From positions 2,790,001 through 2,854,000 of the forward strand of contig JAQOWU010000008.1 in the NCBI GenBank assembly GCA_030867685.1: a stretch of DNA of 64,000 bases, read 5' to 3'. The stretch is from Wickerhamiella versatilis. Its lineage: Eukaryota. Made by a program: the position numbers and the translations under genes. The notes beneath the pieces are model-generated. The model ran no database searches. It had not been told where the DNA came from and saw only the letters and a program-made list of their open reading frames with translations. Shown here piece by piece: positions 2,221-44,867 of this stretch. Position 1 is the stretch's first letter. Each line of letters opens with the position of its first letter.

Positions 2221-3250
2221 ATGTATTAGAGTTCAACAGAAGAATAGATTTAGCAACTTCACCACGATGCTATTTGCTAGACCCTGCTCGTTAAAGTCTA
2301 AATTCAACAGAGCCTGGTACAAAAACTTTGATGGTTGAGCAAGCCGTACACACCAGCTAAAGCTTCTTCTGCAAAAAATAAGGACAGCAAAAGCAAAGGG
2401 AGGTACACTGCTGTTTCTGTGTCCTTAACAACTACCGGCTACCTTCCGGTGGTGTATGTGTGGGTGGTTGGCAGGTAAGGGGTTCTGCGCGTGGGACGTA
2501 GCGAGTTAATGAATTTTAGGGCACGGGTATTACGCGACACGGTCAGTGGTGCTAAAGTTGTATTATACGCGTACAAATTGAATAATTATGCTTTGATGTT
2601 CAATGGATCTTCTTTCTGTACTTCTCACCGTGCTTCAGCGCATATTCTTCAGTTTGTTGTGATCTACTGCTTTCTTCGACGCGTGTCTCAGACTTACACG
2701 TGACACCACATTGGCACCCAAACAAGGATTTTTTGACTATCTCAAATGATTAAATTAAATTATTAAAGTTAGTTGGTATCAGTGGTCCTCTGAGAGTTAG
2801 TCTCTAAACCTTCACCCTCGCGCGTGCAGCCCCTGTCTAGCAATTACTCTCCAGGAGACATAATTGATTTATTGTTGGTCATCCTCTGGTATGCTAGCCC
2901 AAAAGTCGACTCCTATGACTAGCAGCTTTCATTAAAACCTAAATCAGCGACTGAAAACTCAAGTTAAACTAGGTTCTACGAAGTTAAGAAACACCAAGGG
3001 GTGCAGGTCCAAAAATTCCTTGACGGCCTTGCGGTCGCCAAGCGTGGTCATAAATAAATTTTCAACTAGCAAAAACACAATCTCGGACGGATCCTCACTG
3101 ATATGTGTAATGCCCGTGCATAAGGATAAAAGAAGAAGAATATTGTGTTATGTCAGCATATATACCATTCGCTGTGGCCAGAGGCAACTGTCAAAATGGC
3201 TTGATATGTACATATTAATAGGGTATCCTGCATATTTCTCTTAGATAGGC

Positions 3251-41070: not shown

Positions 41071-42234
41071 ATGTCCCACCGTAAGTACGAAGAGCCTCGC
41101 TCCGGTTCGTTGGCATTCTTGCCCCGCAAGCGTGCGTCCTCGCCCCGTGGTCGGGTGAAGGCTTTCCCCAAGGACGACAAGAGCAAGCCAGTCCACCTCA
41201 CCGCCTTCCTCGGTTACAAGGCCGGTATGACCACCATTGTCCGTGACCTTGACCGTCGTGGATCCAAGATGCACCAGAGGGAGATCGTTGAGGCTGCCAC
41301 CGTTGTCGACACCCCACCCCTCGTTGTTGTTGGTGTTGTTGGCTACGTCGAGACCCCCAAGGGCCTCCGAAGCCTTACCACCGTGTGGGCCGAGCACCTT
41401 AGTGATGAGGTCAAGCGCCGCTTCTACAAGAACTGGTACAAGTCCAAGAAGAAGGCCTTCACTTCTTACGCCAAGAAGTACGCTGAGGGCACCTCTTCTA
41501 TCGAGACCGAGCTCGAGCGCATCACCAAGTACGCCTCGGTTGTCCGTGTCCTCGCCCACACCCAGATCCGCAAGACTCCTGTTGGCCAGAAGAAGGCCCA
41601 CCTTGCTGAGATCCAGGTCAACGGTGGCTCCATTGCCGACAAGGTCGCCTGGGCTAAGGAGCACTTCGAGAAGACCGTCGACGTCTCTTCTGTCTTCGAG
41701 CACGAGGAGAACGTTGATGTGACCGCCGTCACCAAGGGTAAAGGTTACGAGGGTGTTACTGCCCGTTGGGGTACCACCAAGCTTCCCCGTAAGACTCACC
41801 GTGGTCTTCGTAAGGTTGCCTGCATTGGTTCTTGGCACCCCCACAACGTGCAGTGGACTGTCGCCCGTTCTGGTCAGGACGGTTTCCACCGCCGTACCTC
41901 GCTCCACCACAAGATTTACCGTATCGGTAAGGGTGAGGACAAGGCCAACGCTGCCACCAACTTCGACAAGACCGAGAAGACCATCACCCCCATGGGTGGC
42001 TTCCCCCACTACGGTGAGGTCAACAACGACTTCCTTCTTATCAAGGGCTCTGTCCCTGGTACTAAGAAGCGTGTTCTTACCATCCGTAAGCCTCTGAAGG
42101 TCCACACCTCTCGTATCCACACCGAGACCATCGACCTTAAGTGGATCGACACTGCCTCCAAGTATGGTAAGGGCCGTTTCCAGACTCCTGCCGAGAAGGC
42201 TCAGTTCCTTGGCACCCTCAAGAAGGACCTTTAA
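41071..42234 (+). CDS. RPL3: 60S ribosomal protein L3 (uL3)
   Basis: [45 protein letters not shown]; extreme codon bias. Confidence 0.98.
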
Positions 42235-42425
42235 GCGTCTTAATAGATGTCAAGCTAACTTATAGTTTCATAAAAAAACTTCTGTCTATAAGCTTTAGCT
42301 ACTAAAAACAAGCAGGCTATATATTCGTAATAGTCATGGGATAATGGATGATATTAGAAGCAATTAGGGAACTACCAACCCTGTCAGCGAGCCGGTGCGA
42401 AGCAACGCCATCATTCATTGTCGGC

Positions 42426-42857
42426 TTATTGTACATCTGGTGACTCTGCCGTGGTGGTCTGCTGCTCCACGCGGTTAATATCCATGGCTTCACCCGCTTC
42501 AATATCTTGCAATAATTCCTTTTCAATCGCTCTTTCAAGATTAACAAAGTCGATCACAGCGTGTAGGTCAGTCGCGTCTGCAGAAAGGACCTGCTCATTG
42601 GTACCAAGCCTCGCATCCACAACGCTCTCCCAAAGACTCTGGAACGCTGAAGAGCTAGGGGATGTTATGGCAGGACGCTTACTGCTCGCCCTACTACGGC
42701 GTGGTACCGCAGAGGGAGTAAGTGGAGAGTGTGCAAAACGTTTAGCTCCTGAATGCCTCGGTGTGGGCTCATTCGCCCGTGAAGAAACGTCAATAAGGGG
42801 CTCACGAGATGTACGCATCGTCCGTGGTGAATTCCTGGCCTCTGAGGCCAACCTCAT
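42426..42857 (-). CDS. Small hypothetical protein with a D-box-like motif and several S/T-P sites
   Basis: 143-aa ATG ORF; REPLIDVS motif, basic disordered N-half, acidic helical C-half; divergent from the 42990 ORF. Confidence 0.55.
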   Translation of the reverse strand: MRLASEARNSPRTMRTSREPLIDVSSRANEPTPRHSGAKRFAHSPLTPSAVPRRSRASSKRPAITSPSSSAFQSLWESVVDARLGTNEQVLSADATDLHAVIDFVNLERAIEKELLQDIEAGEAMDINRVEQQTTTAESPDVQ

Positions 42858-42885
42858 TTGAATAAGCTACTTTCTGGAAATCAAG

Positions 42886-42982
42886 ACGCGTCCTCAAGCA
42901 CGGCAAGATTAGTCACCCGTATACGCGAGCCTCAACAAGCAAACCTGAGTTTTTGTCACGTTACAGTCGGGCATAAACGCGT
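42886..42982. promoter_or_regulatory. MCB (MBF-binding) elements in a short divergent promoter
   Basis: ACGCGT at 42886-42891 and 42977-42982, ACGCGA at 42923-42928. Confidence 0.5.
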
Positions 42983-42989
42983 TCAGACA

Positions 42990-43256
42990 ATGTTGGATAC
43001 CTCCGCAGATAAGGAGAATGTACCACCGGCATCGTATGCACAGCCGCCAATTTCGAAAGGTAAAGGGGCTCGTAGGCCTTTGCAGGATATCAGCCCTGCG
43101 CCCGACTCAACAACCTCTGGATGGATTCGCTCTGACAACACTTCCACGGCAGAGACTATAAAGCAGGATAACTCAGAGAGAAGCCCGTCACCAACTCCTC
43201 AACCGAAGAAGAACTTCCGTCGGCCCAGAAGCACAAAGATCGGACATATGCGGTGA
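42990..43256 (+). CDS. Small Mes1-like candidate APC/C pseudosubstrate inhibitor (88 aa)
   Basis: KEN box DKENVPP, D box RRPLQDIS, C-terminal ...GHMR tail; ATG in acaATG context. Confidence 0.72.
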   Translation: MLDTSADKENVPPASYAQPPISKGKGARRPLQDISPAPDSTTSGWIRSDNTSTAETIKQDNSERSPSPTPQPKKNFRRPRSTKIGHMR

Positions 43257-43267
43257 TGCGTTTTTCT

Positions 43268-43489
43268 TCACTCCTCTCGAGGTTTCTTAACCATCCTAGA
43301 GGTAAGAAACTGGTTGACTTGATGTTGGACGCTCGCAACGTCCTTGCGGAGCTCAGCCAACGGTGCTGTCGGGCGAGGCGGGTCTAGTGCGTCCCGTGAA
43401 GTATCCTGTGGAGGAGGTGTGGTTTCTGTTGCCCGTGAGAATGTATGCTCCTCACTACCGTTTTGGTATATCGCAGTTAGAGCAGTCAT
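43268..43489 (-). CDS. GON7: EKC/KEOPS complex subunit Gon7
   Basis: 73 aa from ATG 43489; LTAIY...HTF and LAELRKDVASVQHQVNQFLTSRM match the Gon7 pattern L..LR.....LQ..IN.FLT.RM. Confidence 0.82.
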   Translation of the reverse strand: MTALTAIYQNGSEEHTFSRATETTPPPQDTSRDALDPPRPTAPLAELRKDVASVQHQVNQFLTSRMVKKPREE

Positions 43490-43739
43490 GCAAGCAGCTG
43501 ACACACCCCTATCCGTCCTGTAGCTTGAGTCAAGTTGTGCGGTGGCCTTCAAAAGACTGCTGGCGTACAACGATACCCTTACTATTTTTCTAAGATTAAA
43601 TTATTATTCTCCAATGCGTCATAATTTCATGAGTCGTGAAACAGTAGTGGAGCCCTGAAGCTCTCTAGAGTTCAAGCTAAAAACAGTATCATATAGAAGA
43701 GCACTAGCTAGCAATATATAACGCATCATTTATCTTAAT

Positions 43740-44867
43740 TCAAGCCTTCAACAACTTCTTATATTCAATTATCTGGTCACTCTCAGAAGATGCTGAGCGA
43801 TTTGCGTCTCGCACTGCCTCCAGGGACTTTTTCCAAGCTTCAAGACGATTGTCTATCTCCTGCCAGTGAGCAGTACTGAACTCGCCAACAGCAACTACAC
43901 GCTCGACACTGAGCTTACTCTTGAGTTGGTTCATTCGAGCCTCTAGCAGTCCAGACTTTACCGCATCAACGATTAGCGGTTCAACCACTGACTCGCTGAC
44001 ACCCGTCGCGGCTGCAACTTCAGAATAAGAAAGCTCCCGTTTCTCAGAAGAGATCTTGGCCAAGGCAAATATGCTAGCCTTTTTCTGAGCAGCAGGTCGG
44101 CTGGTGCCCTTGGCATTGCCATTAGCGACTTCCTGAATTTCGGATACCAACTCAGGCTTTTGCTGAATAGCACTCAATGCCAGAACCTCATCAAAGTCAT
44201 AAACAAATGGGCTTTCTAATGCGCGAGTAGCAACCAAAGGTGCAAGTTCTGCTATGCCCTCCCTGCAGGTATTAAGTACAAACCGATAGGACTCCTTCGG
44301 CGACGCTCGTTCCAACAGATCATTTATACGAGACGCTATTTCGTACGCTCCAGTGCTGTCAACCTTGCTCCAGTCCACAACCCATTTGCTTATAACGTCT
44401 AGCTGTGGCACTAGTTGCCGCACGCTATTCGCAGCTGATGCAAAGTCCAAAACTTTAGAAAAGACCACAAGACGCTGGTGGGCCGACTCATCAGGAAGTA
44501 GGTTGAAAAGGTTACCAAGAACAGCCAGAATTACTACTTGCTGCGCTTCGGACTCGGGCACATCGCTTGCCAAGTTTGCTAGAATCACGGGCAAAAGTGT
44601 GTTAAAGTCCGGAGCTGTTGACAGCACGTGAAGCAAGAGATTATAAGCAGGCTCAAATTCGGTGATAGGAGCCTGCAACAAGGCGCTGGAGCCCTCTGCA
44701 AGGGCAAAGTAAAGCTCTTGGCAATGTGCATCATCAGAGGCAGAGCGTAGCTCAACAGCAAGTGGATACATGGTTTCCTCACCACTTAGGCTGTCAATAT
44801 AAGCTGCTATTTCAGCTATATTGTCGGCGAGTACACCATCAACGATCATAAAGCTCTGACCCGCCAT
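43740..44867 (-). CDS. Eukaryotic translation initiation factor 3 subunit M (PCI domain)
   Basis: EFEPAYNLLLHVL, VLGNLFNLLP, FVYDFDEVL, PCI winged helix LSYSEVA...VEPLIVDAVKSGLLEARMNQ, F...WQEIDNRLEAWK. Confidence 0.85.
   Translation of the reverse strand: MAGQSFMIVDGVLADNIAEIAAYIDSLSGEETMYPLAVELRSASDDAHCQELYFALAEGSSALLQAPITEFEPAYNLLLHVLSTAPDFNTLLPVILANLASDVPESEAQQVVILAVLGNLFNLLPDESAHQRLVVFSKVLDFASAANSVRQLVPQLDVISKWVVDWSKVDSTGAYEIASRINDLLERASPKESYRFVLNTCREGIAELAPLVATRALESPFVYDFDEVLALSAIQQKPELVSEIQEVANGNAKGTSRPAAQKKASIFALAKISSEKRELSYSEVAAATGVSESVVEPLIVDAVKSGLLEARMNQLKSKLSVERVVAVGEFSTAHWQEIDNRLEAWKKSLEAVRDANRSASSESDQIIEYKKLLKA

What the first reader, a model, noticed from the sequence alone, without database searches (positions are those of the whole stretch)
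42990..43256. Mes1-like APC/C pseudosubstrate inhibitor microprotein in a budding yeast
Seen: the 88-aa disordered ORF has, in order, DKENVPP, RRPLQDIS, CDK-type SPSPTP, and ends in ...KIGHMR. Established (recalled): fission yeast Mes1 is a ~100-aa APC/C inhibitor with the same order of motifs (NKENEPP, RRPLQELS, C-terminal MR), and plant OSD1/UVI4 also carry MR tails. S. cerevisiae instead uses the larger Acm1, which lacks this tail. Inference: a retained Mes1-type regulator in Saccharomycotina, easily missed by annotation.
Basis: partly seen in the sequence, partly recalled or inferred. Interest (0 to 1): 0.72.

Follow-up and report, generated by a model that had tools for sequence, protein, structure and literature searches.

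The report
Tiny candidate APC/C brake in yeast
A budding yeast transcribes a gene for an 88-residue, probably unstructured protein that is little more than three docking motifs for the cell-division ubiquitin ligase APC/C, laid out as in the fission-yeast meiotic inhibitor Mes1 but apparently switched on at the start of DNA replication, so it is a good but untested candidate for a minimal brake on that ligase.

Summary
The ORF and its motifs are real. It has a full-consensus KEN box (7-13), a D box (28-35) matching all five coactivator-facing positions, and a terminal MR. No other ORF among 1,071 sampled has the three; shuffles give 1-3 per million. It is transcribed unspliced in two RNA-seq studies, with 42990 as first ATG. 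A model docks both degrons into this yeast's Cdh1 (0.91, controls 0.00), possibly from memory of Acm1-Cdh1. New here: three MCB-like sites at the promoter, a motif that also marks PCNA, a Rad21-family gene and thymidylate synthase in this genome. Together with the expression level, this points to a G1/S, Acm1-like job in a Mes1-like body rather than a meiosis-specific role. Not shown: translation, inhibition as against plain destruction, and homology to Mes1. No orthologue beyond a 97% identical copy was found, so motif conservation is untested. The 'CDK' sites are minimal only; no ABBA motif or securin patch is present. Verdict: new variant of a known kind, interest 0.55.

The parts
42990..43256 (+). 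88-aa ORF, predicted disordered, no intron
   Evidence: translation; RNA depth 214-261 per mate direction over 43004-43247 in run X9, no joints, no other letters; first ATG after the mapped 5' ends
43008..43028 (+). KEN box, residues 7-13 (DKENVPP), full [DNE]KENxxP consensus with Pro at +2 and +3
   Evidence: consensus in PMC5717348 section 5 and PMC3690534; residues 8-13 in the model interface
43071..43100 (+). D box, residues 28-37: P1 R, P3 P, P4 L, P6 D, P7 I, P8 S match; P9-P10 (Pro-Ala) miss the N[N/S] that contacts Apc10; S35-P36 is a minimal CDK site
   Evidence: consensus RxxLx[D/E][hydrophobic]xN[N/S]; L31 contacts Cdh1 L162/D163/Y193, equal to S. cerevisiae L255/D256/F286
43182..43208 (+). 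S/T-P cluster S65, S67, T69 (minimal CDK-type sites)
43206..43229 (+). basic patch K73-R80, possible nuclear localisation signal (inference)
   Evidence: sequence
43248..43256 (+). C-terminal Met-Arg tail and TGA stop
   Evidence: 0 of 196 long ORFs end in MR; the three coactivators of this genome end in LR, LR and IR
42886..42982 (.). three MCB-like ACGCGW sites (42886-42891, 42923-42928, 42977-42982) in the 132-bp gap shared with a divergent gene
   Evidence: only cluster of three within 100 bp in 464 kb; calibration on MBF-type genes
42911..42925 (+). transcript 5' ends of the ORF, back to back with the 5' ends of the divergent gene (42890-42910)
   Evidence: molecule starts at 42925 in X9; adaptor-bearing loose ends at 42911 and 42915 in X12 (the adaptor is recognised as a template-switch oligo from recall)
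42426..42857 (-). divergent 143-aa gene of no known family sharing the promoter, with its own D-box-like motif at 18-25
   Evidence: motif unchanged in a 61% identical homologue P0004
43268..43489 (-). convergent Gon7-family gene, 11 bp beyond the stop; it bounds the ORF on the right
   Evidence: PF08738 E 1.9e-8

Best explanation
A minimal, MBF-induced (G1/S) inhibitor of APC/C-coactivator complexes, most likely APC/C-Cdh1: Acm1's job done with Mes1's anatomy. Steps: (1) the gene is transcribed as an unspliced mRNA (shown); (2) MBF drives a G1/S peak through the MCB-like sites (inferred); (3) the disordered protein occupies the KEN and D-box pockets of one coactivator WD40 domain at once, the two motifs being 17 residues apart (modelled, not shown); (4) the MR tail, 50 residues further on, tethers it to a TPR pocket of the core APC/C, as Nek2A's does on Apc8/Cdc23, and so stands in for Acm1's ABBA motif as the third contact (inferred by analogy); (5) the non-consensus end of the D box gives poor Apc10 engagement, so that it blocks substrates faster than it is ubiquitinated by Cdh1, while Cdc20 probably destroys it in mitosis (inferred from Acm1 and Mes1). 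A second use at the meiosis I-II transition, as for plant OSD1, is not excluded.
For: The protein is almost only APC/C-binding motifs, with no domain. The layout is far beyond chance. Of 15 genome-wide DNA matches to KEN followed 13-33 codons later by RxxLx[DE][ILMV], this is the only disordered, ATG-led, in-frame case; the rest are out of frame or interrupted (11), frames with no Met before the motifs (2) or inside an SMC-like coiled coil (1). So no other protein here has the Acm1/Mes1 layout under this pattern. Model with own Cdh1 WD40: ipSAE 0.91 in 3 of 3 runs, best of 3 controls 0.00, runs agree in at least 62% of contacts, partner pLDDT 50-52; interface is residues 8-13 and 28-36 in the known pockets. 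The mark was reached by 51 of 78 solved and 2 of 108 mismatched microbial pairs. KEN-to-D spacing: 14 residues between the KEN Pro and the D-box Arg, against 15 in Acm1. MCB-like sites lie within 200 nt upstream of 3 of 3 canonical MBF targets tested, against 12 of 163 background ORFs; this ORF has three. Two KilA-N plus ankyrin (Mbp1/Swi4-type) proteins are encoded. mRNA depth is about twice that of the eIF3m end and of the divergent neighbour in run X9, and comparable to them in X12 from another study. Cdh1, Cdc20, an Ama1-like coactivator and Cdc23 are present.
Against: No orthologue beyond a 97% identical copy, so selection on the motifs is untested; the divergent neighbour did return a 61% homologue. 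Translation is not shown and codon usage is uninformative (0.007 in frame, 0.007 in one reverse frame). The complex resembles solved Acm1-Cdh1 (4BH6), so the pass may be from memory, disordered partners are outside the tool's calibration, and a substrate would dock in the same way. Only one of the three MCB-like sites lies upstream of this ORF's 5' ends, and all three could serve the divergent gene. ACGCGW is not clearly enriched over the window (47 against 35.5 +/- 7.1), and 1 of 163 background ORFs also has three sites. No ABBA motif and no full CDK site, both features of Acm1. The growth conditions of the RNA runs are not given.
Confidence: 0.55

Rival explanations
1. An ordinary APC/C substrate with some other job (for instance through the basic C-terminal half); KEN, D box and MR are three degrons that time its destruction, the MR tail giving early, checkpoint-independent turnover as in Nek2A.
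For: Nek2A carries KEN, D box and MR as degrons, not as an inhibitor layout (PMC7271329). Seven lysines, two between the degrons. The model cannot tell substrate from inhibitor. MBF-driven genes are often APC/C substrates (own knowledge).
Against: Little is left for another function: about 50 low-complexity residues with no family match. Nek2A's MR route needs a leucine-zipper dimer, which this chain lacks. D-box P9-P10 are non-consensus, as in Acm1.
Confidence: 0.22
2. A true functional counterpart of S. pombe Mes1: a meiosis-specific inhibitor that holds back the Ama1-like coactivator and Cdc20 between meiosis I and II.
For: Same three motifs in the same order as Mes1 and OSD1. A divergent coactivator ending in IR, read here as Ama1-like, is encoded.
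Against: Mes1 is meiosis-specific, whereas this mRNA is abundant in both RNA studies sampled. MCB-like sites are present, and no URS1-, MSE- or FLEX-like site was found in 42601-43000 (those motifs are recalled).
Confidence: 0.12
3. A shrunken securin: N-terminal KEN and D box followed by a separase-binding half.
For: KEN and D boxes in a disordered chain are the only widely shared securin features besides a glutamate patch (PMC6690013). No securin was detected in this genome (PF04856, a search that rang nowhere and so says little). PDS1 is reported absent in part of one small-genome yeast clade (PMC12629084).
Against: Securins bind separase through a C-terminal region with a conserved glutamate patch; here the C-terminal half is basic, has two glutamates and no [DE][ILV]E or ExxR motif. 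No splice extends the ORF and Gon7 begins 11 bp after the stop. An MR tail is not a securin feature in the passages read.
Confidence: 0.06
4. A transcribed but untranslated or functionless ORF whose motifs are chance.
For: No distant homologue, no Pfam or Atlas recognition; codon usage uninformative.
Against: 1-3 per million shuffles; own 5' ends 65-80 nt before the ATG and a depth step over the ORF; both degrons match secondary consensus positions.
Confidence: 0.05

Closest known systems
Mes1 of Schizosaccharomyces pombe (meiotic APC/C inhibitor; PMC3084671, PMC3406007)
   Same: KEN box, D box and C-terminal MR in the same order; small size (Mes1's length of about 100 aa is recalled); no folded domain.
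   Different: Mes1 is meiosis-specific; this gene is transcribed in both RNA studies sampled and has MCB-like sites. No sequence link to Mes1 was obtained. Mes1's MR tail had not been tested functionally as of PMC3406007.
Acm1 of Saccharomyces cerevisiae (APC/C-Cdh1 pseudosubstrate inhibitor; PDB 4BH6; PMC3690534)
   Same: KENxxP then RxxLxD[LI]S at nearly the same spacing (14 against 15 residues from KEN Pro to D-box Arg); non-consensus D-box P9; budding-yeast lineage; likely interphase timing.
   Different: 88 against 209 aa; no ABBA/A motif, no N-terminal Cdc20-specific D box, no full CDK site; has an MR tail (that Acm1 lacks one is recalled).
OSD1/GIG1 and UVI4 of plants (PMC3406007)
   Same: GxEN/KEN, D box, MR tail; OSD1 acts in both mitosis and meiosis and needs D box and MR tail.
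   Different: Different kingdom, larger protein, no detectable similarity; described as evolutionarily unrelated to Mes1 in the passages read.
Nek2A MR-tail degron (PMC7271329)
   Same: KEN, D box and terminal MR; MR docks on Apc8/Cdc23, which is encoded here.
   Different: Nek2A is a dimeric kinase and a substrate; this protein has no kinase or zipper.
Securins (Pds1, Cut2, PATRONUS; PMC6690013)
   Same: Disordered chain with N-terminal KEN and D box.
   Different: No glutamate patch or long separase-binding C-terminal region; MR tail.

Membership tests
Mes1 / OSD1-type APC/C inhibitor | KEN (or GxEN) box, D box and C-terminal MR in that order | tested here: met
   layout defined in PMC3406007; chance test
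Mes1 / OSD1-type APC/C inhibitor | KEN- and D-box-dependent binding to coactivator WD40 domains | tested here: inconclusive
   model supports it (0.91 against 0.00) but resembles solved Acm1-Cdh1; no binding data
Mes1 / OSD1-type APC/C inhibitor | inhibits ubiquitination of other substrates (pseudosubstrate or competitive substrate) | not testable with these tools
   needs an in vitro APC/C assay
Mes1 (S. pombe) proper | meiosis-specific expression | tested here: not met
   abundant mRNA in runs X9 and X12 of two studies, MCB-like sites; conditions of the runs are not given, so this rests on the inference that both are not sporulating cultures
Mes1 (S. pombe) proper | sequence homology or synteny with mes1 | tested here: inconclusive
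   no hit other than a 97% copy; no Pfam, PDB or Atlas link; no call returned Mes1 for a direct comparison; such searches miss motif-only kin
Acm1 | KEN followed by a D box at a spacing that lets both bind one Cdh1 | tested here: met
   14 residues from KEN Pro to D-box Arg against 15 in Acm1; both docked in the model
Acm1 | ABBA / A motif upstream of KEN | tested here: not met
   no strict or loose match; only 6 residues precede the KEN box; 5' ends exclude a longer N-terminus
Acm1 | N-terminal Cdc20-specific D box and full CDK / 14-3-3 sites | tested here: not met
   one D box only; no S/T-P-x-K/R
Acm1 | D-box extension that disturbs Apc10/Doc1 | not testable with these tools
   the defining paper (Qin et al. 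2019) was not held; seen only as cited in PMC12401543; P9-P10 here are Pro-Ala, non-consensus
Securin | N-terminal KEN and D box in a disordered chain | tested here: met
Securin | C-terminal separase-binding region with a conserved glutamate patch | tested here: not met
   no [DE][ILV]E or ExxR, basic C-terminal half; feature from PMC6690013

The most novel reading that the evidence does not exclude
The KEN / D box / MR microprotein is the ancestral ascomycete APC/C brake, still present in a budding-yeast lineage in its G1/S form. S. pombe Mes1 would then be its meiosis-restricted descendant and S. cerevisiae Acm1 a version that gained ABBA and CDK/14-3-3 control and lost the tail. An unannotated family of such microproteins would exist across yeasts, invisible to homology search, and this 88-aa chain would be the smallest natural three-point APC/C inhibitor and a direct way to test what the MR tail of Mes1-type proteins does.
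Probability: 0.25. Interest if true: 0.78.

Novelty: new variant of a known kind. Interest (0 to 1): 0.55.

Why it matters
APC/C inhibitors are known as lineage-specific inventions (Emi1/2, Acm1, Mes1, OSD1) without sequence kinship. A budding-yeast protein that joins the Mes1/OSD1 layout, MR tail included, to Acm1-like G1/S timing would tie these together, either as a third independent arrival at the same design or as a surviving common ancestor. At 88 residues it is a clean test object for how a KEN, a D box and a tail suffice to block the ligase, and it shows that core cell-cycle regulators can hide among small ORFs that homology searches cannot place. Ten literature searches listed no MR-tailed inhibitor in a budding yeast, judged from titles and abstract starts; most subscription papers are not in that library.

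Tried and rejected
Homology: 5.8-billion-protein search at near length, 1 hit of 2 candidates (P0002, 97%, three changes at residues 54-57, outside the motifs); at longer lengths 0 of 134 candidates; HMMER over 1.84 billion representatives, only P0002 (a relative over 50% identical would be hidden behind it); Pfam 0 families; PDB 0; ESM Atlas best 0.76, below use, and nothing among named clusters. Metagenome scan: 3 loci of 194 candidate stretches (L022-L024), rejected as chance: weak or 14-residue matches (E 2e-5 to 1e-4) in contigs with no sign of this gene neighbourhood. The 132-aa form in the databases (P0002, P0007) is rejected as a gene-caller extension: the window has TTG at that start and the mRNA 5' ends lie downstream of it. 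An intron or a longer spliced product: no joints in two RNA runs. Contig runs X2 and X4, laid in the hope of a sister-species copy, did not cover the ORF; of 14 listed runs 4 were laid. Codon-usage test uninformative. Securin Pfam search uninformative. The neighbour as securin: its DIE-like stretch is not kept in P0004. Earlier scan notes: none on this sequence, on look-alike loci, or on securin/Cdh1 words in this genome. No single-chain fold was run, as the chain is predicted disordered. The MR-tail/Cdc23 contact was not modelled. Supplements were not read; the OSD1 alignment (PMC3406007 Fig. S1) and the gene-absence tables of PMC12629084 could bear on the comparison.

Full report
Observation. 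The + strand at 42990-43256 encodes 88 residues with DKENVPP (7-13), RRPLQDIS (28-35), SPSPTP (65-70) and a final MR. The chain is rich in S, P, T, R and K and predicted unfolded. It has no Pfam family, no PDB relative and no usable Atlas hit. It sits between a divergent 143-aa gene and a convergent Gon7 gene, near RPL3 and eIF3m. The genome has 9.88 Mb in 8 contigs. RPL3 scores highest against entries that I recall as Candida, Kluyveromyces and Saccharomyces ribosomes (688-678 bits), ahead of those I recall as fission yeast (669) and Chaetomium (651), which fits a budding yeast by a small margin. A place in the small-genome Wickerhamiella/Starmerella group is my guess from genome size and scarcity of introns and was not tested.

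Chance. With loose definitions, 1 of 1,000,000 shuffles has KEN, D box and [ILM]R end in order (3 in any order). In 464 kb of this genome (40 stretches of 10 kb plus the window) 0 of 196 long ORFs and 1 of 875 short ORFs has all three, namely this one; 0 of 196 long ORFs end in MR. One motif alone means little: [DN]KENxxP codons occur 6 times genome-wide against 6 in the control; four of the others lie in long ORFs and one in a 12-residue frame, and none of them ends in MR. Two genome-wide patterns for KEN followed 13-33 codons later by a strong D box gave 8 and 7 DNA matches (controls 9 and 7). In frame and open were this ORF, two frames with no Met before the motifs, and one SMC-like coiled coil (the SMC label is by eye). 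Under this pattern, which needs an acidic P6, a hydrophobic P7 and no intron, no other protein of the genome has the Acm1/Mes1 layout.

It is a gene. Two raw RNA-seq runs of the same species label, from different studies, were laid on 42150-43950 (4 of 14 listed runs were laid; two were contig sets that missed the ORF). In X9 depth rises from about 70 to 214-261 per mate direction over the ORF, against about 90-140 over most of the divergent gene and about 120 for the end of eIF3m. In X12 it is of the same order as its neighbours. 5' ends map to 42911-42925, there are no joints, and no ATG lies between those ends and 42990. The 132-aa version in the protein collection starts at a TTG upstream of the 5' ends and is an artefact of gene calling. 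Translation is not shown, and codon usage does not discriminate. The growth conditions of the runs are not given.

Quality of the motifs. The KEN box meets [DNE]KENxxP, with prolines at +2 and +3 (PMC5717348 section 5; PMC3690534 passages). The D box meets every coactivator-facing position (R1, small P3, L4, acidic P6, hydrophobic P7) and the preferred S at P8, but has Pro-Ala where N[N/S] contacts Apc10. Acm1's inhibitory D box also departs at P9, and residues after it are reported to disturb Apc10 (Qin et al. 2019, not held; seen only as cited in PMC12401543). KEN Pro to D-box Arg is 14 residues, against 15 in Acm1.

Partners and model. The genome encodes Cdh1 (P0005; best PDB hits FZR1/Cdh1), Cdc20 (P0006, 52% identical over the matched region), a divergent third coactivator ending in IR that I read as Ama1-like and Cdc23. 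Folded with the Cdh1 WD40 domain, the protein scored 0.91 in three runs, best of three controls 0.00; runs agree in at least 62% of contacts and partner pLDDT is 50-52. The mark was reached by 51 of 78 solved and 2 of 108 mismatched microbial pairs; disordered chains are untested. The interface is residues 8-13 and 28-36, with L31 against Cdh1 L162, D163 and Y193, which align with L255, D256 and F286 of S. cerevisiae Cdh1, the D-box pocket. A like complex is solved (4BH6), so this shows that the motifs fit the pockets, not that this copy binds, and a substrate would fit equally well.

Timing. Three ACGCGW (MCB-like; consensus recalled) sites lie at 42886, 42923 and 42977, the only cluster of three within 100 bp among 216 sites in 464 kb (0.23 such clusters expected in that length). 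The motif appears to be in use here: PCNA (-46, -41), a Rad21/Rec8-family gene (-12) and thymidylate synthase (-15) each have it, 3 of 3, against 12 of 163 background ORFs, one of which is PCNA itself and one of which has three sites; Exo1, Cdh1, Cdc20, the Ama1-like gene and Cdc23 have none. Two KilA-N plus ankyrin proteins of the Mbp1/Swi4 type are encoded. Against this: only the site at 42886 is upstream of this ORF's 5' ends, and the promoter is shared with the divergent gene, which has its own conserved D-box-like motif. No URS1-, MSE- or FLEX-like site was seen. Mes1 is meiosis-specific (PMC3084671 Introduction). The balance favours a mitotic G1/S gene.

Conservation. This is the weak point. 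Searches of 5.8 billion proteins at near and longer lengths, of 1.84 billion representatives, and of metagenome contigs returned only a 97% identical copy and three chance loci. The neighbour has a 61% homologue on a 74-kb contig, so a sister species is in the collection, but its DNA could not be fetched. Selection on the motifs, and any descent shared with Mes1 or Acm1, are untested.

Mechanism. Best reading (0.55): an MBF-induced microprotein that fills the KEN and D-box pockets of Cdh1, and probably Cdc20, and anchors its MR tail in a TPR pocket of the core APC/C, as Nek2A does on Apc8 (PMC7271329 passages), thereby keeping APC/C-Cdh1 off after G1 until it is itself destroyed. OSD1 needs both D box and MR tail in plants and also acts in mitosis (PMC3406007 passages); Mes1 is a pseudosubstrate for one coactivator and a competitive substrate for another. 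Shown: gene, transcript, motifs. Modelled: coactivator docking. Inferred: translation, G1/S timing, tail docking, inhibition. Rivals: plain substrate with another job (0.22), meiosis-specific Mes1 counterpart (0.12), shrunken securin (0.06; no glutamate patch, PMC6690013 passages), functionless ORF (0.05).

Comparison and novelty. It works like Mes1, OSD1 and Acm1 on present evidence, but is not filed as Mes1 (meiosis-only expression not met, homology unresolved) or Acm1 (ABBA, first D box and CDK sites not met). Five earlier notes of this scan describe an Acm1-like family with three docking motifs in filamentous ascomycetes; they are unchecked AI notes, were not tested here, and only suggest that such inhibitors may be more widespread than annotated. 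Ten literature searches listed no MR-tailed inhibitor in budding yeasts, judged from listings. Also read as passages: PMC4114781 and PMC12629084, which added little beyond the reported absence of PDS1 in part of one clade; sections 7 and 9 of PMC3690534. No supplements were read.

Verdict. Observation confirmed; interpretation partly supported and shifted from 'retained meiotic Mes1' to 'Mes1-shaped, Acm1-timed candidate inhibitor'. New variant of a known kind; interest 0.55. The boldest reading, an ancestral three-motif APC/C brake linking Mes1 and Acm1, has probability about 0.25 and would deserve about 0.78.

Noticed in passing
window 42426-42857 (-): Transcribed 143-aa gene of no known family, sharing the MCB-bearing promoter; N-terminal D-box-like motif at 18-25 unchanged in a 61% identical homologue, S/T-P-rich middle, conserved helical-looking C-terminal part. 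Possibly a second unannotated G1/S APC/C substrate.
   Followed up: partly
window 42890-42925: The two divergent transcripts start back to back within about 1-35 nt, so each gene's upstream elements must lie in the other's transcribed leader.
   Followed up: partly
L094, L095, L096 (upstream of PCNA, a Rad21/Rec8-family gene, thymidylate synthase): MCB-like sites lie unusually close to the start codon (-12 to -46) in this genome, as does the -13 site of the ORF studied.
   Followed up: partly
L034:1435-2718 (+): Strongly diverged Cdc20-family coactivator ending in IR, with no DR[FY]IP C box in the frame read; Ama1-like by my reading; a 5' exon may be missing.
   Followed up: partly
L003 and L008: Both Cdh1 and Cdc20 of this yeast end in LR rather than IR.
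   Followed up: no
L095 (G000:C8:3974327-3974572): Only one Rad21/Rec8 N-terminal match in the genome, and a weak one (E 6.7e-9); whether Rec8 is present was not resolved.
   Followed up: no
window 43206-43229: The basic patch KKNFRRP loosely recalls the basic stretch before the RL tail of Emi1/Emi2 (recalled, not tested); here it is internal, so probably a localisation signal or chance.
   Followed up: no
window 43268-43489 (-): A 73-aa Gon7-family (KEOPS) gene, itself small enough to be missed by annotation.
   Followed up: yes
window 2532-2684: Three ACGCGW sites within about 150 bp upstream of a PAK-type kinase gene (1-2220, -), a second possible G1/S promoter.
   Followed up: no
L028 (Exo1-like ORF) and L025 (GATA-type ORF): Other good KEN boxes in the genome lie in an Exo1-like nuclease (with a D box upstream) and a GATA-type factor, both named by eye; likely APC/C substrates.
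   Followed up: no
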